In this document: one piece after another, positions 31,427 to 51,041 of the stretch
How the letters are laid out: every line of letters begins with the position of its first letter
How positions within the stretch are numbered: the stretch's first letter is position 1
NCBI GenBank assembly: GCA_025830695.1
Contig: GCA_025830695.1_4111.1
Length of the DNA stretch: 64,000 nucleotides
Reading direction: 5' to 3' (one strand)
Origin: a phage
The notes under the pieces: model-generated
Databases searched by the model: none
Seen by the model: the letters and a program-made list of their open reading frames with translations, nothing else
Told to the model about the DNA's origin: nothing
Position numbers and translations under genes: made by a program

Positions 31427-31855
31427 ATGAATATCGAACAAACTATCCGTGAACATTCTTTCTTCGCTCCAGAAACTGGTCGTGTTATTGAGAGCGTCAA
31501 AATCGAAGAACTAATGGTCAATGTTAAATACAAAGAACCAAATGATGAGATTAGCAGTACTTTTTGTGCTCTACGTGCACCATTCCGTAATGAAAAAGCT
31601 AAGAAACCAGCATATGTTCTTGCCATTGCACTGGGTTGTGTTGTAAAACTTGCAGTTGATGAAAATCTTCTGAATATTAAAGTTGCACCAAGCAATGACG
31701 ATGAAAACATTGATTTGAACTTTGATGGTTCTCTTGATGAAGATGTATTTTTCCAACAGTCACTTGTTTACGACTTCCGTACAGTGACACATTCTCACAT
31801 CAAGTTCATTAATGAAATGGTTGAGATTGTTGCTGAATACGAAGAATCTCTCTAA
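31427..31855 (+). CDS. EE-FFQ-S family small protein (paralogue 1)
   Basis: C-terminal DEDVFFQQSLVYD motif. Confidence 0.55.
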   Translation: MNIEQTIREHSFFAPETGRVIESVKIEELMVNVKYKEPNDEISSTFCALRAPFRNEKAKKPAYVLAIALGCVVKLAVDENLLNIKVAPSNDDENIDLNFDGSLDEDVFFQQSLVYDFRTVTHSHIKFINEMVEIVAEYEESL

Positions 31856-32620: not shown

Positions 32621-33016
32621 ATGAAGAACAATATTGGAACTTCAATAATTAAACCACTTTCTTATTACCTTGAAAAATTTAGAAGCACAAATGGTAATAA
32701 ATTTAATAATATATTTCAGTTCTCTCATAAAGAATATATTACAATTGATCATTTTTCAAAGAAACTAATGTATGTAAATGATAATAGTCATATTATTAAA
32801 TTATCATTCGATATTGAGTTAGATAAATTAACATTTACGGAATACATTAATCAAAAAACTTCTTTTTTATGTCAATACAATAGGAAAGTATATAGTAATA
32901 TTTCTATGTATCTAAATGATGAATATCACTTTCAACAATCTACAATAGAAGAAGTATTGTTCAGTACTGAAGAATTAAAAGAACTATATTACTGGTATAA
33001 TTATTTCACATCTTGA
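32621..33016 (+). CDS. EE-FFQ-S family small protein (paralogue 2)
   Basis: DEYHFQQSTIEE. Confidence 0.55.
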   Translation: MKNNIGTSIIKPLSYYLEKFRSTNGNKFNNIFQFSHKEYITIDHFSKKLMYVNDNSHIIKLSFDIELDKLTFTEYINQKTSFLCQYNRKVYSNISMYLNDEYHFQQSTIEEVLFSTEELKELYYWYNYFTS

Positions 33017-33071
33017 CATTATTGTGGGTTTATCCTACAATACATGATGATGCTGCATTGAGGATAAATTT

Positions 33072-33482
33072 ATGAGTTTAGATTTACACAATGAACTAAA
33101 ATATTTTTTAGATTTGGACATATCAGAATTGAACCACCACGTCAATCATATGACTAGTACTGTATGGTGGTCTAATGATCAAGACGACCCAATTATCCAA
33201 CTAAGTGATGAATCGTCAATTATGCGATTTTATAAGATTAATTATAAAAAGAACATCAAGATCACATATGTACCATACAAAAACATACTACTAGTCGAAA
33301 CACTTAATCCAAGTTCTTTATTAAAAATCACAGATTTAGATACATTACAAACAAGTGAATCTTTATTCCAACGTTCATTAGTTGATGATCTTGGTGGTAT
33401 TACTTTTGAAGATATATTACAATTGAAGAATATGTATAGTGAATTGTTGGAGATTAAAAACACTTTAGTAATGGGGAATTGA
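33072..33482 (+). CDS. EE-FFQ-S family small protein (paralogue 3)
   Basis: SESLFQRSLVDDLGGITFED. Confidence 0.55.
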   Translation: MSLDLHNELKYFLDLDISELNHHVNHMTSTVWWSNDQDDPIIQLSDESSIMRFYKINYKKNIKITYVPYKNILLVETLNPSSLLKITDLDTLQTSESLFQRSLVDDLGGITFEDILQLKNMYSELLEIKNTLVMGN

Positions 33483-33483
33483 T

Positions 33484-33888
33484 ATGGTAAGTTTACTAGA
33501 TATTGATAATACCAGTTTAGTGCTGGTGAAAAAAGGTTTAATTCCCAATTCTACAAAAATTGATTATGCTGTTATTGAAACAAATATTGGAAATATCTGG
33601 TACGACTCTGAAAGGGATATTGTGTTTAGCTGTGTAGACAGTGATCGATCTGAATGTTGTAGAGTCGGTCATGACGGACAATTTGTTTTTGAATTTCGTT
33701 ATTGGAAGGACGCAAAATTTCACCAAGAACTGGTTGCTTTGTCAAATGAACTATATACAGAAGAATCGTTCTTCATGGCTAGTACTATTAATGATTTTGG
33801 TTCAGTTACATTTGAGTACTATAAAAAGATATACGCACTATCCAGAGAAGTTATGAAAATTATCAGAACTGCTGAAGGTAAAGAATAA
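33484..33888 (+). CDS. EE-FFQ-S family small protein (paralogue 4)
   Basis: EESFFMASTINDFGSVTFE. Confidence 0.55.
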   Translation: MVSLLDIDNTSLVLVKKGLIPNSTKIDYAVIETNIGNIWYDSERDIVFSCVDSDRSECCRVGHDGQFVFEFRYWKDAKFHQELVALSNELYTEESFFMASTINDFGSVTFEYYKKIYALSREVMKIIRTAEGKE

Positions 33889-33889
33889 C

Positions 33890-34267
33890 ATGACTACTAT
33901 ATATGATATTTTGGGTGTTCTGAGTAGAAATATAGATGATGATTTTGTTATTGTTCAAGATACTAGAAATACATTTCAACTACCAATAGGTTCACCAGAT
34001 AGGTTAATTTTTAATAGATACTCAAATGAACTAACTTACATCCATGATGGGATTGCAATTGTATCAGTTTCTATAAACGACTATACAATACGATATGTAT
34101 ATGACTTCAACGATTATTGTACAAGAATCCACAGTATTGATATTTCCGAAGAGGAACTATTCCAATTGTCATTGATTGAGAAAAATGTAATAGGAATTAC
34201 AGAAATTGGTATTATTAAAAAAGCATTAAACTATACAAATATAAGAATTAATGGTGGGTGCAGATGA
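33890..34267 (+). CDS. EE-FFQ-S family small protein (paralogue 5)
   Basis: EEELFQLSLIEKNVIGITE. Confidence 0.55.
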   Translation: MTTIYDILGVLSRNIDDDFVIVQDTRNTFQLPIGSPDRLIFNRYSNELTYIHDGIAIVSVSINDYTIRYVYDFNDYCTRIHSIDISEEELFQLSLIEKNVIGITEIGIIKKALNYTNIRINGGCR

Positions 34268-34719
34268 ATGTTGACGAAATAAAAAATCATTTTGAAATTG
34301 CAATGTCATGTGAATTTGACACACAACGTGTTCATGACCCGAAAGAACATATACGCATTTGTTGTGAATTGTCAGATGATTGTAATATTTTTATTGGAAA
34401 AACCTATGACATGATCGATCTTTCATGTATAGATCCATTGGAAAGAAAAACAAAATATTTATATCTGTACAACACAACATCAGATACGATTGCAATACAA
34501 CTAATATCAACCACAACATCCCAAAGTTATTATAACATAACTGAGGTTAGTAGTTTAACGTTAACCGAAGAAGGATTCTTTCAACAATCGCTTATTCGTG
34601 AAATTGGTGTTAGTTATGATGAGTTAAATGTATTAGTAGATTGTTTCGAAAAATTGAGTACTTTTGTATTATCCCTTTTTAATATACAGTCGCAAAATCC
34701 AATGGTGGTGAAATGCTAA
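34258..34719 (+). CDS. EE-FFQ-S family small protein (paralogue 6)
   Basis: EEGFFQQSLIREIGVSYDE. Confidence 0.55.
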   Translation: MQMNVDEIKNHFEIAMSCEFDTQRVHDPKEHIRICCELSDDCNIFIGKTYDMIDLSCIDPLERKTKYLYLYNTTSDTIAIQLISTTTSQSYYNITEVSSLTLTEEGFFQQSLIREIGVSYDELNVLVDCFEKLSTFVLSLFNIQSQNPMVVKC

Positions 34720-35153
34720 ATCCAAGTAAATTTCTCCACTTACTTTCGATAACATCAATACCGGATCTTACCAGTGAAACTAATGAATATCGTGAAGCTG
34801 GGGTGGTGTCTATGGAACTCGATACATTTGACCACAAATGCTATGTGACATATGACCCACCGCGTTATGGTAAAGAACATTCTTCTTTTATTTTTGTATT
34901 CGTATACACTGTATATGATAATACAACACTTGATGATGTTTGTATTGACACTTACGAAATTTGTGATAATATCATAACTGATGACAACAATAACTCATTT
35001 GATATGTCACTATATAACACAGAAGAATCGTTGTTTCAACTTAGTACTGTTATTGATGCACCATCATTAGAAGATATAAAACAATTTCAAGAACATCTTG
35101 ACGCAGTTCGTGAGATGTTCTATAATCATTATCCAGAAGTAGAGTTCAATTAA
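34713..35153 (+). CDS. EE-FFQ-S family small protein (paralogue 7)
   Basis: EESLFQLSTVIDAPSLED. Confidence 0.55.
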   Translation: MLNPSKFLHLLSITSIPDLTSETNEYREAGVVSMELDTFDHKCYVTYDPPRYGKEHSSFIFVFVYTVYDNTTLDDVCIDTYEICDNIITDDNNNSFDMSLYNTEESLFQLSTVIDAPSLEDIKQFQEHLDAVREMFYNHYPEVEFN

Positions 35154-35467: not shown

Positions 35468-35758
35468 GTGATGATGATTTTTATGACGAACGATATGGAG
35501 ATGATGATGAGTGAACATAGTGCTGTGCTTAAAAAGATTTTAAAGGAACTTGATGGTGAGTTTAATGTCACAGAAGAAGACTATCAGCATTGGAAGAAAG
35601 GTTTTGAACAACTAACCGAGTATGATAAAGTGTTCAATATGATTGGCGTAATTAGCCAGTACTTACTCGGTGGAGGACGTGCAAGTGCTTCAATTCTGGC
35701 ATCTGCAATCATCTGTACATCACGATGGTGTGATGAAAAAAGTTTGGAAGATTTCTAA
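35468..35758 (+). CDS. hypothetical protein (start uncertain)
   Basis: 96-aa ORF with several in-frame Met. Confidence 0.4.
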   Translation: MMMIFMTNDMEMMMSEHSAVLKKILKELDGEFNVTEEDYQHWKKGFEQLTEYDKVFNMIGVISQYLLGGGRASASILASAIICTSRWCDEKSLEDF

Positions 35759-35810
35759 ATAAGATGCTATAATATATTATAGTACCTTAACAATATAAAA
35801 AGGATTTTAT

Positions 35811-36671
35811 ATGAAACCTATCCGAGTACTTTCTCTTTTTAATGGAATGAGTGTGGGATATATGGCATTGCAAGATGCTGGTATCCCAGTTGAAAAATAT
35901 TATTCATCCGAAATTGATAAGTACGCAATAGCTGAATCTCAATCTAACTTTCCTGATATTATCCAATTGGGTGATGTAACTAAGTGGAGAGAATGGGATA
36001 TTGAGTGGGACAAAATAGATTTATTAATGGGTGGTTTCCCATGCCAAGCCTGGTCAGTTGCAGGTAAACAGGGTGGTTTAAATGATATACGTGGGCAGTT
36101 ATTTTTAGTAATGGTTGAAATTTTTGATCATATCAAAAGTCTCAATCCTAACTTGAAATTTCTGTTTGAAAATGTTAAAATGAAGGAAGATTTCAAAGAA
36201 TACATTAATAGTATTTTAGGAATCACGCCAGTACTGATAAACTCCCAGCATTATACGCCTCACTTCAGGCAGAGATATTACTGGTACAGTACTGATAAGC
36301 TTTTTATACCACCTGCATTATCCAATGCACCTAAACTTCAAGATATTATTGAAGATGGTTGGTACACTGACAGAACCGCTTCGTACTGTATAGATGCTAA
36401 CTATTTTAAAGGTGGTGATTGTAACCAGTACTTTAATAAATCCAGACGACAATTGGTGTTTCGTGACCCAGTGATCAGTCGTCAATATCTATTAGAGAAT
36501 GGCAAAAGAAATATTGACTATAGACACTTAAGTGTAGTAGAATGTTGTAAATTACAGGGTGTTCCTGAAGATTTCTTTAAAGTGTCTAGTAAGACACAAG
36601 CATACAAAATGCTTGGGAATGGATGGACTATGCCAGTTATATCACATTTACTAAGAGAGATATTCTTTTGA
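35811..36671 (+). CDS. DNA (cytosine-5)-methyltransferase
   Basis: motif I LFNGMSVG, motif IV GGFPCQAWS (catalytic Cys), motif VI ENV; 286 aa. Confidence 0.8.
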   Translation: MKPIRVLSLFNGMSVGYMALQDAGIPVEKYYSSEIDKYAIAESQSNFPDIIQLGDVTKWREWDIEWDKIDLLMGGFPCQAWSVAGKQGGLNDIRGQLFLVMVEIFDHIKSLNPNLKFLFENVKMKEDFKEYINSILGITPVLINSQHYTPHFRQRYYWYSTDKLFIPPALSNAPKLQDIIEDGWYTDRTASYCIDANYFKGGDCNQYFNKSRRQLVFRDPVISRQYLLENGKRNIDYRHLSVVECCKLQGVPEDFFKVSSKTQAYKMLGNGWTMPVISHLLREIFF

Positions 36672-37153
36672 ACATAAACAAATACCAAACTTATATAAAA
36701 CGTACAGAAAGTTTCAAACGGCTGGCTGTAAAATCTGAATTAGAATTTAATTTGTATTATCCTAATATTGGTGATGAGGTATTTTATTGCTCTCATTCAA
36801 AGAATGGAACTTTACTTAAATCGGGTAAAGGAACTATTGTTGATATGACCGCAAATTTCAGAGGTAAACTTAATGTAATGTACAAAGTACAAGATTCAAG
36901 TACTGAGTGTATTCATGAAGTGATGCATAACATACCTGCATATCCAAAAGATTTTGTTCAGCTAATATCTCGAAGGGAGAAACCTATGTTTTATTGTGGT
37001 TACGATAAATTAACCAAACAAATTATTCCTAATACTATGGGAAAATTTAAAAGTGATGTGAAATCTGAACTTGAAAAGAAATTTGGCACGTCATGGGAAA
37101 CTGAAAACGAGTTTATCGAAATTCGTTTAATTGAAATTACTATACTTGAATAA
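36623..37153 (+). CDS. hypothetical protein (start uncertain, possibly TTG 36668)
   Basis: ORF overlaps the methyltransferase 3' end. Confidence 0.4.
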   Translation: MDYASYITFTKRDILLNINKYQTYIKRTESFKRLAVKSELEFNLYYPNIGDEVFYCSHSKNGTLLKSGKGTIVDMTANFRGKLNVMYKVQDSSTECIHEVMHNIPAYPKDFVQLISRREKPMFYCGYDKLTKQIIPNTMGKFKSDVKSELEKKFGTSWETENEFIEIRLIEITILE

Positions 37154-37157
37154 TTAC

Positions 37158-37182
37158 AAATCCACGCATTGCGTGGATTTTT
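37158..37182 (+). terminator. rho-independent terminator
   Basis: ATCCACGC-ATT-GCGTGGAT + TTTTC. Confidence 0.65.
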
Positions 37183-37195
37183 CATAGGTGCATAT

Positions 37196-37711
37196 ATGCC
37201 AATTCCTTATGTTAAAATTATTAATAATATTCTCGATTCATGGGAAGATGTTATTACTGGTAAAAAGAAACCATCACCAGTACATGCTTTATCTGGGAAA
37301 CTTCAATTCAGAATGTCAAACCAAACTGAAACATTTAATAATCATGATATTTGCATTACATTAAAAACACCTGTTAGTATTGTAATTAAAAAAAATAAAG
37401 ATGATGAATTGACATTATCTATTGGTCGTGATAAAATCATTTTAAGTAATTTGTCTGAAGAAGAATTCTTTCAAAGAAGTACTATTATCGATATGAAAGA
37501 TTTCACATATGAATCATTGGTTGAACTCAATACACGTTTTAACGATATTCAGGAACGATTGCGACCAATTCTTCGTATCGAAGAAGAAGCCTGGATTGAA
37601 AGTATTAGGAAGATGCAAGAAATGTTGAAAGAAAATATTAACAATCTGGGTAAAGCTACAATGGAATTTGGTAAAACTTTTAAACTGAACTTTTCAAAGG
37701 ATCGTAAATGA
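37196..37711 (+). CDS. EE-FFQ-S family small protein (paralogue 8)
   Basis: SEEEFFQRSTIIDMKDFTYE; ORF in track (37169..37711), start moved to ATG 37196 past the terminator. Confidence 0.55.
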   Translation: MPIPYVKIINNILDSWEDVITGKKKPSPVHALSGKLQFRMSNQTETFNNHDICITLKTPVSIVIKKNKDDELTLSIGRDKIILSNLSEEEFFQRSTIIDMKDFTYESLVELNTRFNDIQERLRPILRIEEEAWIESIRKMQEMLKENINNLGKATMEFGKTFKLNFSKDRK

Positions 37712-38163
37712 AAATTGATAATTTGATTCATGTTTTAGGATCTTTACATAAAATATTATCACATCTACATGAGATAAAGAAACTGGGATTTAACATCTCA
37801 AATTCAATTGAAACTACATTTAAATATCAATCAATTACTGGTGATGGTTATTACATAATCGAATATACTTATGAAACCGATCCAGACTTCTATCCTCTTA
37901 CGTTGAGAATTTATCCAACAAATCCGAGAGGAATTCACGACATATCATCAATTTCACTTGATCCAGATGGTGAAACGAGTATTGAATACAATAATGATTC
38001 AAAACCAGAATTTTACATTGATGATATTAAAATGATGTTCAACGATGAATATGTTTTCCAACAAAGTACTGTGCATGATGTTGGAAGTACTAATGGACAA
38101 TTTTGGAATACATGTTATTATCATATGATTGAAATTTGTAAATTACTAAAAGGTGATGAATAA
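37708..38163 (+). CDS. EE-FFQ-S family small protein (paralogue 9)
   Basis: NDEYVFQQSTVHDVGST. Confidence 0.55.
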   Translation: MKIDNLIHVLGSLHKILSHLHEIKKLGFNISNSIETTFKYQSITGDGYYIIEYTYETDPDFYPLTLRIYPTNPRGIHDISSISLDPDGETSIEYNNDSKPEFYIDDIKMMFNDEYVFQQSTVHDVGSTNGQFWNTCYYHMIEICKLLKGDE

Positions 38164-38546
38164 TGAAATACTGCATTGAAGTACATTACACTACAGGGGA
38201 CACTGAAACTGAAGATTCAGTTACCAATACATTGGATGTTCAATGGGAATCAAAGGATGAGGCAGTTGTAGCATTACAGTCTTTGAAAGAGCATTGGGTA
38301 TTCTTTAAGAAACTCGATGATGCATATAGTAACGAACGTGCTACAATAATCGATGAAGCCAAACATAAAGAATGGTTTGATCCAATGTCATGTGAATTCT
38401 CTTTCTTTGTAAAAATTGGAGATGAAAAAATCCCAGTACGTACACCGTGGAACGGCTACTTTGAAACTCTTCATAATGCACGAGTTGTCGCTGTTGATAA
38501 TCCTGAACAAATCGATTTCGATTCATTGGACTGGAAAAAACTATGA
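38163..38546 (+). CDS. hypothetical protein
   Basis: 127-aa ORF. Confidence 0.5.
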   Translation: MKYCIEVHYTTGDTETEDSVTNTLDVQWESKDEAVVALQSLKEHWVFFKKLDDAYSNERATIIDEAKHKEWFDPMSCEFSFFVKIGDEKIPVRTPWNGYFETLHNARVVAVDNPEQIDFDSLDWKKL

Positions 38547-38986
38547 CAGTACTGCACCAATTGAAGAAGGTTAAGCATCCAGTTGTATATGAGGACTGGA
38601 AACGTCAGAAGCTGATGGGTGATTTTTATTTCCCAAAATCTAAAGTACTAGCAACGTCAAAAGCTATATACTTGAAATATAAGGATGAAGATTGTTTGTG
38701 TATTCAAATGGGATTCCATCCTAAAGTTGGTTTGTTTACAACAAATCAAACATTTTATAAATTTAGAATTCAAAAAGATACATTTAGTATTCATATCGAA
38801 AAACATGATGTACAAGATACAATTTATCGTGTGGAAAGTGAGCCTTTGAATCTTGTTGAGATCCCGTACAATAATTTAGAAGAAATGTACTTTCAGCAGT
38901 TGACAATACAAGAAGACTTTGGTATGATAGGACTTCAAGAGTTAGAGATGATTAAACAAATTCGTGATATCTACTTTAAGGAGTAA
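38543..38986 (+). CDS. EE-FFQ-S family small protein (paralogue 10, divergent)
   Basis: LEEMYFQQLTIQEDFGMIGLQE. Confidence 0.5.
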   Translation: MTVLHQLKKVKHPVVYEDWKRQKLMGDFYFPKSKVLATSKAIYLKYKDEDCLCIQMGFHPKVGLFTTNQTFYKFRIQKDTFSIHIEKHDVQDTIYRVESEPLNLVEIPYNNLEEMYFQQLTIQEDFGMIGLQELEMIKQIRDIYFKE

Positions 38987-45527: not shown

Positions 45528-45863
<336 letters not shown>

Positions 45864-45864
45864 A

Positions 45865-46047
45865 ATGACACACGAAGAATGGATGTCCAAACAGCATAAA
45901 GAACATGACTGCTTTGGGAATGGCATTCGTCAGGTACATTATGATATATTAAGAGATGAAAATCTTTTCAGGTCATATGTTTTGGATACCAGAAAACCCT
46001 GGTTTATATGCGAACTGGCATTTAGAAAGTCAAATAATCAAAACTAA
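45865..46047 (+). CDS. MTHEEW-family small protein (copy C)
   Basis: internal ATG of track ORF 45847..46047. Confidence 0.5.
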   Translation: MTHEEWMSKQHKEHDCFGNGIRQVHYDILRDENLFRSYVLDTRKPWFICELAFRKSNNQN

Positions 46048-46063
46048 ACAAGGAATACAAAAA

Positions 46064-46282
46064 ATGGAAACAACTTTATTTGAAGTTATTCAATCATTAA
46101 AACCTGAAGATGAGGTTCAAGTACTACTACATGGTTATCGTGTAAAAGGTACTGTGGTTTTAGTCAATGATACAACATTGGTTATTACAGAAACAAACCC
46201 ATATGATAGTAATCAACTTGCCAATATCCATATCGATATCACTGGAATTATTGGTGTCGGTGTATCTAAAACACTTGCATAA
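46064..46282 (+). CDS. hypothetical protein
   Basis: internal ATG of track ORF 45956..46282 with AAGGAAT RBS. Confidence 0.45.
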   Translation: METTLFEVIQSLKPEDEVQVLLHGYRVKGTVVLVNDTTLVITETNPYDSNQLANIHIDITGIIGVGVSKTLA

Positions 46283-46335
46283 ATCATTAATTCATTATAT
46301 AATGATTATCACTGGTTCTAGATGAGGATAATATT

Positions 46336-46608
46336 ATGCATTTTGAAAAATTCAACGTAAATCGTAACACACGCATTGAAGTTCTTTATGAAACTCAAGA
46401 CACCATTAGTATTCGTACAAGTAGTGGGGATGTATATCATGACTGTACGATTGGCTGGGAACAGGGAAGGACGCGTAGTGCAGTATTTGATAATTATCGC
46501 TTTTATCAAGGAGACACTACGATTTGGCCTGAATACGTAGAAGATATTGCGTTTGAAGATGAACATAAAGATGAATTTATCAAATTTAATCCTCAAACTG
46601 AATCATAA
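46336..46608 (+). CDS. hypothetical protein Confidence 0.45.
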   Translation: MHFEKFNVNRNTRIEVLYETQDTISIRTSSGDVYHDCTIGWEQGRTRSAVFDNYRFYQGDTTIWPEYVEDIAFEDEHKDEFIKFNPQTES

Positions 46609-46612
46609 ATAA

Positions 46613-46742
<130 letters not shown>

Positions 46743-46745
46743 AAT

Positions 46746-46846
<101 letters not shown>

Positions 46847-46848
46847 CA

Positions 46849-47009
<161 letters not shown>

Positions 47010-47013
<4 letters not shown>

Positions 47014-47170
47014 CACATGAAGAATGGATGAATGACATTAATTTTAGATATTCGGGTATCGGTAAATGGCTAAAGTATCATTGGGAATTCATTTCAGAGC
47101 CACATCTGTATGATAAACTTATCAACGATCCAGCATATGAAATGTACTTAATTGAACTACTGGTACGATT

Positions 47171-47174
<4 letters not shown>
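47010..47174 (+). CDS. MTHEEW-family small protein (copy E)
   Basis: near-identical to copy D over the first third; ATGA-coupled. Confidence 0.45.
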
Positions 47175-47336
<162 letters not shown>

Positions 47337-47344
47337 AAAAAAAG

Positions 47345-47758
<414 letters not shown>

Positions 47759-47815
47759 CTAAATAATTCAGTACTGAGGATATTAATATGTTTAAAGATG
47801 AACGTCCAGATTTGT

Positions 47816-47853
<38 letters not shown>

Positions 47854-47857
47854 GAAT

Positions 47858-48201
47858 TCCACAATCAGACGTATATGGTGTAAGTTACGTCGATGCAATC
47901 CAGAACAAGATCTCTGGTACTCTAGGAAGTGGTGAATGTTAACCTAGACGGGTTTGATAATTGGACGATAGGCAATTATTACTTGACTAGCAGGTTTAAA
48001 CTAGAGGTGACTATCCTTCACCAAACTGGAAAACCGGATGGACTTTTATTTAAAAGGGTAAGGCGTGGAAATATGTTTACAGAAGTTGCTTTTAGTAGCC
48101 TGTACGCCCCACGTCAAGGTAGCCGAAAGGCAAGTTAAGACGGGTGGTTATAAAGCTGAATTAACAGCGGCGTTTAAAAGCGTCACCATCCATTTTTTTT
48201 T
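47858..48201 (+). ncRNA. candidate structured non-coding RNA
   Basis: ORF-poor, GC-richer stretch between a promoter and a hairpin + T-run; long-range complementarity (GGTGAA...TTCACC), GAAA tetraloop CCGAAAGG. Confidence 0.35.
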
Positions 48202-48217
48202 AATTAAAGTTGGTGAT

Positions 48218-49027
<810 letters not shown>

Positions 49028-49051
49028 ACGAAATTACAATAGGAAATTAAA

Positions 49052-49237
49052 ATGCAACTTTTAATTCTTTCAATATTGTATATTATTATAATGGTTCCGA
49101 TATCAATACGTTTAATTACACTTGAACGATTTTTATCGAAACATGGAAATAGATCTATGATCTTAGTACCAATCGGGCTTATATTGTTTGGTATTTTTGC
49201 ATTTATAATGGGAATTAACGCTACATTCATTTCATAG
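49052..49237 (+). CDS. small membrane protein
   Basis: 61-aa two-helix hydrophobic ORF. Confidence 0.45.
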   Translation: MQLLILSILYIIIMVPISIRLITLERFLSKHGNRSMILVPIGLILFGIFAFIMGINATFIS

Positions 49238-49246
49238 GAAACAAAT

Positions 49247-49504
<258 letters not shown>

Positions 49505-49512
49505 GAATTTAA

Positions 49513-49914
49513 ATGAAAAAGAATGACTTGATCAAAATGCTTCAAGAAATTGACGGCAATCCAGAGATTGTTATTTGGAATGGATACGTCGATGATTATA
49601 TGAACATCGAAAAAGGCTTGACTAAAATCACTCTAGTCAAAGAAACCGAACAGTTTCTTCAGGGTGCATTAGAGCACGAATGGTGTGAACGTAACAATAC
49701 ATTCGACATTCCAGAAGACCAACGAACCAAGATTGCAGAACGTGCTAAAGAACTGCATAAGAAACGTGAATACGATTTCCAGAACCCATATGTCACTGAA
49801 GACGAATTCAATCGCTGGTACGGTAAAAAGAAATTGATAAAGTATGTCCTTTCACCTAAACTACGTGGTAAGACTTCACTTGGTGTATTCAACGCCGCAG
49901 ACTTAAACTACTAA
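49513..49914 (+). CDS. hypothetical protein Confidence 0.5.
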   Translation: MKKNDLIKMLQEIDGNPEIVIWNGYVDDYMNIEKGLTKITLVKETEQFLQGALEHEWCERNNTFDIPEDQRTKIAERAKELHKKREYDFQNPYVTEDEFNRWYGKKKLIKYVLSPKLRGKTSLGVFNAADLNY

Positions 49915-49926
49915 GAGAGTATTTAA

Positions 49927-50694
<768 letters not shown>

Positions 50695-50696
50695 TA

Positions 50697-50753
<57 letters not shown>

Positions 50754-50838
50754 AGTAAGAGTAAAAATGAAAGTAAGTAAAAAAACTACCAAGCAGCTTG
50801 AAGAACTTTGTAGTGCTGCACCTATGCCGACTCTTGGC

Positions 50839-50939
<101 letters not shown>

Positions 50940-50951
50940 TATCTTACTTCT

Positions 50952-51041
<90 letters not shown>

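What the first reader, a model, noticed from the sequence alone, without database searches (positions are those of the whole stretch)
35811..36671. Orphan C5-cytosine DNA methyltransferase
Clear m5C methyltransferase motifs, with no adjacent restriction endonuclease candidate. An orphan methyltransferase in a phage is most simply explained as self-protection against host restriction.
Basis: partly seen in the sequence, partly recalled or inferred. Interest (0 to 1): 0.5.

Follow-up and report, generated by a model that had tools for sequence, protein, structure and literature searches.

The report
Known orphan phage cytosine DNA methyltransferase
This is an intact, strongly conserved gene for an enzyme that methylates cytosines in DNA, sitting without a partner restriction enzyme in a giant E. 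coli phage; public records and papers already annotate it this way, so it is ordinary, and the main open question is which DNA sequence it marks.

Summary
The ORF at 35811-36671 (+, 286 aa) is a complete C5-cytosine DNA methyltransferase (Pfam PF00145 E 7.5e-38). All catalytic motifs are present and invariant across 55 homologs. The window is an Asteriusvirus jumbo coliphage, 99.9% identical to SHEFM2K. GenBank records for PBECO4, 121Q and phAPEC6 already call this gene a DNA (cytosine) methyltransferase, and papers already propose protective methylation.

"Orphan" holds. No restriction-enzyme, TET, glycosyltransferase or CmoA family was found in 41 neighbouring ORFs. No type II restriction-enzyme model hit any of 236 large ORFs of a related genome. 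The downstream neighbour is not conserved among orthologs. The gene is under strong purifying selection (dN/dS 0.04-0.08).

Self-protection is plausible but unproven. The phage clearly also relies on site avoidance: GCGC is absent from whole genomes of this clade.

The parts
35811..36671 (+). C5-cytosine DNA methyltransferase CDS (286 aa, stop codon included)
   Evidence: ORF. PF00145 E 7.5e-38, TIGR00675, PHROG 116. AF2 model pLDDT 93.4. dN/dS 0.04-0.08 against orthologs.
35744..35773 (+). sigma-70-like promoter candidate with extended -10 (TTGGAA-18 nt-TGcTATAAT) in the 52-nt gap upstream of the gene
   Evidence: Consensus scan, 10 of 12 matches with TG; sequence read. Consensus match only: the number of such sites in the region is no higher than in shuffles.
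35799..35803 (+). Shine-Dalgarno-like AAGGA, 7 nt before the ATG
   Evidence: Read directly.
35829..35858 (+). Motif I, SAM-binding loop (aa 7-16, LSLFNGMSVG)
   Evidence: L7, S8, L9, F10 and G12 are invariant in alignment A1. Aligns to DNMT3 'LSLFDGIATG'.
36033..36050 (+). Motif IV (aa 75-80, GFPCQA) with catalytic Cys78 (codon 36042-36044). This is the intein insertion point in some relatives.
   Evidence: G75, P77 and C78 are invariant. The intein in phage A4 is inserted between P77 and C78.
36168..36176 (+). Motif VI, E120-N121-V122
   Evidence: Invariant in A1.
36264..36284 (+). Motif VIII (aa 152-158, FRQRYYW)
   Evidence: R153, R155 and W158 are invariant in A1.
36288..36518 (+). Minimal target-recognition domain (aa 160-236). 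It has a conserved part, D187-R188...C193-x-D-A-N-Y-x-K-G-G...K210-x-R-R-Q, and lacks the 40-60 aa variable insert present in longer family members.
   Evidence: Alignment A1. No sequence match to any solved structure. hhalign to M.HhaI shows that the TL-loop region is missing. The fold aligns over the whole chain with DNMT3.
36522..36560 (+). Motif IX (aa 238-250, RHLSVVECCKLQG)
   Evidence: R238, L240 and E244 are invariant.
36606..36641 (+). Motif X (aa 266-277, KMLGNGWTMPVI), with Asn270 retained
   Evidence: G269, N270 and G271 are invariant. Asn rather than Arg at this position argues for SAM rather than carboxy-SAM as cofactor (PMC12783734).
36623..37153 (+). Downstream ORF (176 aa) overlapping the methyltransferase 3' end by 49 nt. 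It is an ORFan and is listed here only as the tested and rejected candidate partner.
   Evidence: No Pfam hit. PHROG 28599, unknown function. Only 4 close homologs among 5.8 billion proteins. Not conserved next to the orthologs in RaK2, EJP2 or Turkey5.

Best explanation
The gene encodes an active, solitary, SAM-dependent DNA cytosine-C5 methyltransferase. Shown by sequence and structure: the full catalytic apparatus is present. Cys78 would attack C6 of a flipped-out cytosine, Glu120 would protonate N3, Arg153/Arg155 would hold the base, and the motif I, II and X residues would bind SAM. The fold is that of the DNMT3 catalytic domain, with a minimal target-recognition domain. Inferred: it is probably transcribed from its own host-type promoter in a block of small, early-looking genes. 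It would methylate replicating phage DNA at a short motif of 2-4 bp. CpG is the leading candidate, but at well under even odds. Packaged genomes would then enter the next host already protected from methylation-sensitive type II restriction enzymes whose short sites are too frequent to purge. In this view it complements the clade's main strategy of eliminating restriction sites.
For: Family, motif and structure evidence. Purifying selection: dN/dS is 0.04-0.08 even where dS is saturated, and there are orthologs in Asteriusvirus, Alcyoneusvirus (RaK2) and Mimasvirus. In some relatives an intein sits exactly at the catalytic Cys, a typical position in a functionally constrained site. Orphan status: no REase, TET, GT or CmoA family in 41 ORFs within about 9 kb either side; none among the 25 families displayed (of 42 hit) for 102 window ORFs; no REase_II model hit in 236 ORFs of at least 130 aa of a 98%-identical genome; the downstream neighbour is not conserved; a homolog on an unrelated phage contig is also solitary. 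Promoter and RBS. Protective role and CpG lead: the RaK2 paper PMC3622015 reports RaK2 DNA cut only by methylation-insensitive enzymes and bisulfite evidence of m5CpG. RaK2 ORF194 is the syntenic ortholog, 63.6% identical. Short CpG-containing sites remain abundant in the genome (ACGT 1125, TCGA 579, CGCG 127, CCGG 118), so there is something left to protect. CpG is depleted with TpG/CpA excess (rho 0.75 and 1.25), which is compatible with m5CpG deamination.
Against: No methylation data exist for this phage, and the RaK2 data are 'not shown'. RaK2's enzyme has PCT instead of PCQ and an 8-aa insert in the catalytic loop, so its specificity may differ. The TRD has no sequence match to any enzyme of known specificity. 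DNMT3-like viral enzymes need not target CpG: small phage C5 methyltransferases tested so far mostly prefer GpC (PMC8256090, PMC12783734). CpG-containing 6-mer palindromes (XhoI, SalI, BsiWI, PvuI, BspEI sites) and GCGC are still eliminated, which would be unnecessary if all CpG were methylated. The relative Sharanji (99.7% identical enzyme) was isolated on E. coli K-12 MG1655. By established knowledge that strain carries McrBC, McrA and Mrr, which restrict m5CpG and RmC DNA. Two relatives carry disrupting deletions. The promoter is only a consensus match.
Confidence: 0.6

Rival explanations
1. The enzyme is an active DNA m5C methyltransferase, but its main role is not anti-restriction. It could mark phage DNA for replication, packaging or gene-timing control, or act mainly on host DNA during takeover.
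For: The clade already removes most GC-rich restriction sites, which lowers the need for methylation. The gene is disrupted in two viable Salmonella-grown isolates, as expected for an accessory function. Clade-wide DNA-level signals of unknown meaning exist: no GCGC, and a 16-fold excess of CAGTACTG.
Against: Nothing links the enzyme to those signals. Homologs in unrelated phages occur in genomes with normal GCGC and no AGTACT excess. The RaK2 report points to methylated virion DNA that resists methylation-sensitive enzymes, which is the classical protective pattern.
Confidence: 0.2
2. The methyl group, or a carboxymethyl group, is only the first step of a cytosine hypermodification pathway, as in phage C5-MT + TET + glycosyltransferase systems or the CmoA-CmoX-CmoY system.
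Against: No TET/JBP, glycosyltransferase, CmoA or ligase family was found in 41 neighbouring ORFs or among the 25 families displayed for the window's ORFs. Motif X keeps Asn270, whereas CmoX needs Arg at that position (invariant N270). The RaK2 and CBB papers found no hydroxymethylase or glucosyltransferase genes.
Confidence: 0.03
3. It is a DNMT2-like tRNA cytosine-C5 methyltransferase serving the phage's own tRNA set.
Against: DNMT3 and bacterial DNA methyltransferases match better by sequence and fold. [quoted passage not shown] The window encodes no tRNA-Asp, the classical DNMT2 substrate.
Confidence: 0.03
4. It is an inactive or decaying remnant of a former restriction-modification system.
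For: Two relatives have internal deletions and one record shows a fragmented gene (CMSTMSU).
Against: All catalytic residues are intact. dN/dS is 0.04-0.08 across genera. Thirteen records carry a 100% identical protein.
Confidence: 0.03

Closest known systems
Orthologous methyltransferases of Rak2-like jumbo phages (PBECO4, 121Q gp91, phAPEC6, Sharanji 'HaeIII methylase', RaK2 ORF194, GAP32, CBB)
   Same: Same gene at the same syntenic position: 100-99.7% identical in Asteriusvirus, 74-78% in GAP32, CBB and XbC2, and 63.6% in RaK2. Already annotated as a DNA (cytosine) methyltransferase and discussed as protective methylation (PMC7247149, PMC3622015, PMC5259590, PMC11895373).
   Different: Nothing material for the Asteriusvirus copies. 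RaK2's copy has PCT and an 8-aa catalytic-loop insert. Some relatives carry an intein at Cys78.
Eukaryotic DNMT3A/3B/3C catalytic domain
   Different: No PWWP or ADD regulatory domains. PCQ rather than PCN in motif IV. The TRD is not alignable by sequence, so the CpG-reading residues cannot be mapped. The margin over M.HhaI at sequence level is small (126 against 114 bits). It is a solitary phage enzyme.
Bacterial type II m5C methyltransferases M.HhaI and M.HaeIII
   Same: Same motif order and chemistry. The catalytic loop is very similar to M.HhaI's (PCQAWSVAGKQGGLNDIRGQLF against PCQAFSISGKQKGFEDSRGTLF; sequence comparison).
   Different: It lacks the second recognition (TL) loop region of the HhaI-type TRD and has no cognate endonuclease. 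The 'HaeIII', 'HpaII' and 'DNMT2' labels in some records are automatic names with no TRD support.
Phage short-motif C5 methyltransferases (TET-associated GpC enzymes, CmoX, chlorella-virus M.CviPI and M.CviAIV)
   Same: Small solitary viral C5-MTase-fold enzymes, thought to modify very short motifs to blunt restriction (PMC8256090, PMC12783734, PMC3227630).

Membership tests
C5-cytosine DNA methyltransferase (PF00145 / TIGR00675 dcm superfamily) | Profile match above the curated cut-off | tested here: met
   PF00145 131 bits against 22; TIGR00675 119 bits against 100.65.
C5-cytosine DNA methyltransferase (PF00145 / TIGR00675 dcm superfamily) | Catalytic motifs I, IV (P-C), VI (E-N-V), VIII (R-x-R), IX and X (G-N) in the non-permuted order, with a TRD between VIII and IX | tested here: met
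   F10/G12, P77-C78, E120-N121-V122, R153/R155, R238/L240/E244 and G269-N270-G271, all invariant in 55 homologs.
C5-cytosine DNA methyltransferase (PF00145 / TIGR00675 dcm superfamily) | Two-domain C5-MTase fold | tested here: met
C5-cytosine DNA methyltransferase (PF00145 / TIGR00675 dcm superfamily) | m5C actually deposited on DNA | not testable with these tools
   Needs bisulfite, EM-seq or LC-MS. The only report is for the RaK2 ortholog, data not shown.
Type II restriction-modification system | Cognate restriction endonuclease gene adjacent to the methyltransferase | tested here: not met
   No nuclease family in 41 neighbouring ORFs at E<0.05. The downstream ORF is an ORFan, not conserved among orthologs. 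No REase_II model hit genome-wide in a relative. Caveat: restriction enzymes are often undetectable by profiles.
DNMT3 family (eukaryotic de novo methyltransferases) | Catalytic-domain fold with minimal TRD | tested here: met
DNMT3 family (eukaryotic de novo methyltransferases) | N-terminal PWWP and ADD chromatin-reading domains; PCN in motif IV | tested here: not met
   The protein is 286 aa and consists of the catalytic domain only. Motif IV is PCQ.
DNMT3 family (eukaryotic de novo methyltransferases) | CpG-reading TRD-loop residues and CpG specificity | tested here: inconclusive
   Sequence alignments break across the TRD, and model coordinates could not be superposed on a DNA complex with these tools.
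CmoX DNA cytosine C5-carboxymethyltransferase | Arg replacing the motif X Asn (HhaI N304 position) and a neighbouring CmoA gene | tested here: not met
   N270 is invariant. No CmoA-like family nearby. Criterion taken from PMC12783734.
TET-coupled 5mC hypermodification cluster | TET/JBP dioxygenase and tailoring-enzyme genes next to the C5-MTase | tested here: not met
   None in 41 neighbouring ORFs. None among the 25 families displayed of 42 for 102 window ORFs, so 17 weaker families were not displayed.
DNMT2 / tRNA m5C38 methyltransferase | CFT motif adjacent to motif IX | tested here: not met
   There is no CFT tripeptide in the sequence. Criterion taken from PMC3227630.

The most novel reading that the evidence does not exclude
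The enzyme is a genuine virus-borne DNMT3-type dinucleotide (CpG) methyltransferase that heavily methylates the phage genome. If so, the phage must also carry an unrecognised countermeasure against E. coli's methyl-directed McrBC, McrA and Mrr systems. The clade-wide, actively maintained absence of GCGC would then be functionally tied to this methylation, either because GmCGC is a site that cannot be tolerated when methylated, or through a phage nuclease that discriminates host from phage DNA. Nothing here excludes this reading, and nothing here links the two observations.
Probability: 0.1. Interest if true: 0.6.

Novelty: already known. Interest (0 to 1): 0.2.

Why it matters
For the finding as given, very little is new. 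The gene is annotated in dozens of public records, and its presumed protective role has been stated in print for phAPEC6, RaK2, CBB and Sharanji. Three things remain open and are cheap to resolve: the recognition sequence, whether a DNMT3-like minimal enzyme from a phage reads CpG, and how a cytosine-methylated coliphage copes with McrBC. A small, solitary dinucleotide methyltransferase of known specificity would also be a useful reagent. The side observations made while checking it may be more informative about this clade's biology than the methyltransferase itself. These are the total absence of GCGC across three genera, host-specific purging of 6-bp palindromes, and a 16-fold excess of CAGTACTG.

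Tried and rejected
1. Assigning specificity from the TRD. The TRD alone (aa 155-245) has no significant match in the PDB. Profile-to-PDB and hhalign alignments break across the TRD. The 'HaeIII', 'HpaII' and 'DNMT2' names in records are unsupported. No assignment was possible.

2. Inferring the target from k-mer statistics. Among 25 GC-rich 6-mer palindromes, the presence of CpG is not associated with escape from elimination (8 of 19 eliminated sites contain CpG, against 4 of 6 retained). GGCC, CGCG, ACGT and TCGA are near expectation, but that is not diagnostic.

3. The downstream overlapping ORF as a hidden restriction enzyme. It has no family match, only four near-identical homologs, and is not conserved beside the orthologs. 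I rejected it as a conserved partner. No structure prediction was run because the alignment is too shallow.

4. The CmoX, TET and DNMT2 readings were rejected (see rival explanations).

5. A GCGC (HhaI-like) specificity that would explain the missing GCGC. The HhaI-type recognition loops are absent, and unrelated phages with homologous enzymes keep GCGC. It is not supported.

6. Literature searches for methylome data on Asteriusvirus, for 'DNMT3-like' phage enzymes and for the CAGTACTG motif found nothing specific.

7. One weak PADLOC 'mREase_IV' hit (E 8.5e-7) was seen among 144 ORFs of a relative's genome, outside the window region. I could not identify which ORF it was, and I did not pursue it.

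Full report
**1. What is at the coordinates**

An ATG-initiated ORF runs from 35811 to 36671 on the + strand, 286 codons plus the stop. It matches the following family models:
- Pfam PF00145, C-5 cytosine-specific DNA methylase: E 7.5e-38, 131 bits against a cut-off of 22.
- NCBIfam TIGR00675 dcm, above its cut-off.
- PHROG 116, 'DNA methyltransferase': E 5.3e-60 over the full length.
- PADLOC MTase_II: E 1.3e-38.

The sequence carries every canonical motif in the canonical order:
- Motif I: L7-S-L-F10-N-G12-M-S-V-G16.
- Motif II: E34.
- Motif IV: G75-F-P77-C78-Q79.
- Motif VI: E120-N121-V122.
- Motif VIII: R153-Q-R155.
- Motif IX: R238-x-L240...E244.
- Motif X: G269-N270-G271.

All of these residues are invariant in an alignment of 55 homologs with 51-86% identity to the query.

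**2. Where the window comes from, and whether this is new**

The surrounding 7 kb is 99.9% identical to Escherichia phage SHEFM2K. It is 97-99.7% identical to phAPEC6, SP27, PBECO4, 121Q, G17, Sharanji and others. These are jumbo myoviruses of about 350 kb in the genus Asteriusvirus.

The protein is 100% identical in at least 13 records. Those records already annotate it as 'DNA methyltransferase', 'DNA-cytosine-methyltransferase' or, by automatic naming, 'HaeIII methylase'.

Several papers mention the enzyme:
- The phAPEC6 paper says that an N6-adenine and a C5-cytosine methyltransferase 'suggest protective DNA methylation' (PMC7247149).
- The Sharanji paper says the same (PMC11895373).
- The CBB paper lists the ortholog (PMC5259590).

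**3. Is it functional?**

Nei-Gojobori comparison with four orthologs gives dN/dS between 0.04 and 0.08, even where synonymous sites are saturated. The orthologs were EC.P1, Turkey5, EJP2 and RaK2, at 95.5%, 89.5%, 76% and 64% amino-acid identity.

AlphaFold2 with the 55-sequence alignment gives a confident model, with mean pLDDT 93.4 and pTM 0.90.

In phage A4 the gene is interrupted by a 346-aa intein. TH47, JNE01, ph0011 and UE-S1 show the same alignment break at residue 78 and probably carry it too, but only A4 was checked. The intein has Hint and LAGLIDADG domains and begins 'CFPAGT...'. It ends '...VVHN', directly before the catalytic Cys78. That is the classic position for an intein, inside an indispensable motif.

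Against essentiality, two Salmonella-grown relatives carry internal deletions in an otherwise identical gene:
- SD-1_S14 has a 179-bp deletion that removes motif IV.
- SD-6_S16 has a 64-bp deletion just after motif IV that frameshifts the rest of the gene.

If those assemblies are correct, the gene is dispensable in that host.

**4. Is it an orphan?**

The evidence supports orphan status:
- Eight immediate neighbours have no meaningful Pfam match, and nine have only 'unknown function' PHROGs.
- A scan of all 41 ORFs between 27.2 and 45.1 kb at E<0.05 found no nuclease, TET/JBP, glycosyltransferase or CmoA family.
- Of the 42 families hit by 102 window ORFs, the 25 displayed are replication and nucleotide-metabolism functions.
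- PADLOC restriction-enzyme models were run on 236 ORFs of at least 130 aa from the 98%-identical genome OR844650. There was no type II restriction-enzyme hit. There was one weak type IV-like hit that I could not assign to an ORF.
- The downstream ORF (36623-37153) overlaps the methyltransferase by 49 nt. It has only four near-identical homologs among 5.8 billion proteins.
- Different genes replace that ORF next to the orthologs in RaK2, EJP2 and Turkey5.
- A 54%-identical homolog on an unrelated P22-like phage contig is also solitary.

The caveat is that restriction enzymes often escape profile searches.

**5. What kind of C5 methyltransferase is it?**

The best solved relatives are the catalytic domains of mammalian DNMT3C, 3A and 3B, not bacterial enzymes.
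- By sequence, the E-value is 3e-23 with alignment over residues 2-282.
- By family profile, DNMT3B scores 126 bits, M.HhaI 114 bits and M.HaeIII 101 bits.
- By Foldseek, the top 50 PDB hits are all DNMT3, with TM 0.80.

The reason is mainly architectural. Like DNMT3, this enzyme has a very small target-recognition domain of about 77 residues between motifs VIII and IX. The family alignment shows two parts:
- A conserved part: D187-R188, C193-x-D-A-N-Y-x-K-G-G, K210-x-R-R-Q.
- A variable insert of 40-60 aa, in longer members only. hhalign places this insert on the M.HhaI recognition (TL) loops. The protein here lacks it.

The enzyme is not a DNMT3 family member. It has no PWWP or ADD domains, and motif IV is PCQ rather than PCN. 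The resemblance is also not unknown. KEGG-based virome studies label phage genes 'DNMT3A' (PMC11309003). Jurkowski and Jeltsch noted a chlorella-virus enzyme that clusters with Dnmt3 (PMC3227630).

**6. Target sequence**

The target cannot be assigned here. The TRD on its own has no match in the PDB, so no enzyme of known specificity shares it.

The only experimental lead is the RaK2 paper (PMC3622015). It states, as data not shown, that RaK2 DNA is cut only by enzymes insensitive to Dam, Dcm, CpG and EcoKI methylation, and that bisulfite sequencing revealed m5CpG. RaK2 ORF194 is the syntenic ortholog at 63.6% identity. However, it has PCT and an 8-residue insert in the catalytic loop.

Points compatible with CpG:
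- The DNMT3-like fold.
- CpG depletion with TpG/CpA excess (rho 0.75 and 1.25). This pattern is common in AT-rich genomes, so it carries little weight.

Points against CpG:
- Other small phage C5 methyltransferases that have been tested prefer GpC (PMC8256090, PMC12783734).
- CpG-containing palindromes are purged as thoroughly as others.
- A 99.7%-identical enzyme sits in Sharanji, which was isolated on K-12 MG1655. By established knowledge that strain has McrBC, McrA and Mrr, which attack m5CpG and RmC DNA.

I put CpG at roughly one in three. Other 2-4 bp motifs, including GpC-type or Dcm-like ones, share the rest.

**7. Rival chemistries**

- *Carboxymethyl transfer (CmoX).* This needs Arg at the motif X Asn position and a CmoA partner (PMC12783734). 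Here N270 is invariant and no CmoA is nearby. Rejected.
- *TET-linked hypermodification.* No TET or tailoring genes are nearby, and the RaK2 and CBB papers found none genome-wide. Rejected as far as it could be tested.
- *DNMT2-like tRNA methylation.* The diagnostic CFT motif is absent, and DNMT3 and DNA enzymes match better. Unlikely.

**8. Expression**

The 52-nt gap upstream of the gene contains three elements:
- A promoter-like TTGGAA-18 nt-TGcTATAAT, i.e. an extended -10 element.
- An AAGGA Shine-Dalgarno sequence.
- The ATG, 7 nt after the AAGGA.

The gene lies in a long run of small + strand ORFs, several of which are preceded by near-consensus sigma-70 sites. This looks like a host-polymerase (early) region. 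It is only a consensus-level inference, because the total number of such sites is no higher than in shuffles.

**9. Context that bears on 'self-protection'**

The clade plainly uses site avoidance as well as methylation.

*Loss of GCGC:*

| Sequence examined | GCGC observed | GCGC expected |
|---|---|---|
| Window (64 kb) | 0 | 17 |
| Genome of a 98%-identical relative (352 kb) | 0 | 161 |
| RaK2-like Klebsiella phage (348 kb) | 0 | 129 |
| Mimasvirus XbC2 (30 kb) | 0 | 30 |
| 299 ORFs, against synonymous-codon shuffles | 0 | 135 ± 9 |

Unrelated phages with homologous methyltransferases do contain GCGC.

*Loss of 6-mer palindromes.* In the E. coli phage, 17 GC-rich 6-mer palindromes with at least 5 copies expected have no copies at all. 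Examples are the PstI site (54 expected), the NcoI site (38), the BamHI site (32) and the KpnI site (32). The Klebsiella phage has a partly different purged set. The 6-mer avoidance is therefore host-specific, whereas the loss of GCGC is clade-wide and actively maintained.

Methylation would then cover short sites that remain frequent, for example ACGT, TCGA, CGCG, CCGG and GGCC. That is a reasonable division of labour, but it is inference.

**10. Verdict**

The finding is real, and it is correctly identified as a solitary m5C DNA methyltransferase. It is already known. The protective interpretation is plausible and matches the literature, but it is unproven. It is also complicated by type IV restriction and by apparently viable deletion variants. 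This check adds three things:
- The DNMT3-like minimal architecture, with quantified structural support.
- The exclusion of the CmoX, TET and DNMT2 readings.
- Genome-level support for orphan status.

The side observations are recorded separately below.

Noticed in passing
window 1-64000 (whole window); also L002-L009 (OR844650), L016-L022 (OU509535), L026 (XbC2): The tetranucleotide GCGC is completely absent: 0 in the window (17 expected), 0 in a 352-kb relative (161 expected), 0 in a 348-kb RaK2-like Klebsiella phage (129 expected) and 0 in 30 kb of Mimasvirus XbC2 (30 expected). Synonymous-codon shuffles of 299 ORFs give 135 ± 9. The loss is clade-wide across three genera and several hosts, so it is actively maintained. 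The agent is unknown; it could be a widespread host nuclease or a phage-encoded GCGC nuclease..
   Followed up: partly
window-wide; quantified on L002-L009 and L016-L022: There is wholesale elimination of GC-rich 6-bp palindromes. In the E. coli phage, 17 such sites with at least 5 copies expected have no copies, including CTGCAG, CCATGG, GGATCC, GGTACC, GCATGC and TCCGGA; CAGCTG has 1. The Klebsiella relative keeps several of these but lacks CTTAAG and TCGCGA. This is host-specific restriction-site avoidance. GATC is also at half of expectation..
   Followed up: partly
window, 25 copies, e.g. 29038, 29078, 36229, 36287 (the last two inside the methyltransferase gene), 44782, 44861, 52308, 52343: The palindromic octamer CAGTACTG (core AGTACT/GTAC) is massively over-represented. 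There are 204 and 246 copies in the two whole genomes and 15 copies in 30 kb of XbC2. Within ORFs there are 114 copies against 7 ± 2.7 in synonymous shuffles (z = 40); AGTACT has 555 copies against 144 ± 11. The sites are mostly inside genes, not locked to a reading frame, and often occur in pairs 35-80 bp apart. The function is unknown. The motif is absent from unrelated phages that carry a homologous methyltransferase..
   Followed up: partly
window 32621-35153 and 37169-38986 (+), plus 31427-31855 and about 53281: The methyltransferase sits inside a tandem array of paralogous small genes (125-180 aa). They share a C-terminal motif EE-x-(F/L)-F-Q-(Q/R/L)-S-x-(I/V), and all belong to PHROGs of unknown function. 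The same motif appears in further ORFs elsewhere in the relative's genome, especially at 250-300 kb..
   Followed up: partly
L010:1732-3630 (phage A4); the same break at residue 78 is seen in TH47, JNE01, ph0011 and UE-S1: In some Asteriusvirus relatives the methyltransferase gene carries a 346-aa intein with Hint and LAGLIDADG homing-endonuclease domains. It is inserted exactly between P77 and the catalytic C78 (…GGFP|CFPAGT…VVHN|CQAWS…). The window copy has no intein. Only A4 was translated and scanned..
   Followed up: yes
L023 (Salmonella phage SD-1_S14) and L024 (SD-6_S16): Two Salmonella-propagated relatives have different internal deletions in an otherwise identical methyltransferase gene. 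A 179-bp deletion removes motif IV, and a 64-bp deletion just after motif IV causes a frameshift. Their genomes are 20-40 kb shorter overall, with many fragmented ORFs. This is either real gene loss or an assembly artefact..
   Followed up: partly
window 36623-37153 (+): A 176-aa ORFan overlaps the last 49 nt of the methyltransferase gene, across its motif X, in another frame. It has only four close homologs in 5.8 billion proteins and is absent beside more distant orthologs. Its true start codon and whether it is expressed are unknown..
   Followed up: partly
window 1-64000: CpG is depleted (odds ratio 0.75) with a matching TpG/CpA excess (1.25). This is compatible with deamination of m5CpG but also common in AT-rich genomes. 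It was not compared with phages that lack a methyltransferase..
   Followed up: no
window 45550-51031 (+): There is a cluster of six tRNA genes (Gly-TCC, Ser-TGA, Ser-GCT, Met-CAT, Asn-GTT, Thr-TGT) interspersed with very small ORFs. This is ordinary for this phage group..
   Followed up: no
window (member ORFs not identified) and L002-L006: Several window ORFs hit PADLOC defence-candidate models (PDC-M16A, PDC-S68, RecD-like, GajB-like helicase). In the relative's genome, one ORF weakly hits a type IV methyl-directed restriction-enzyme model (E 8.5e-7), and others hit Cas4, DarG and dCTPase models. It was not resolved which ORFs these are..
   Followed up: no
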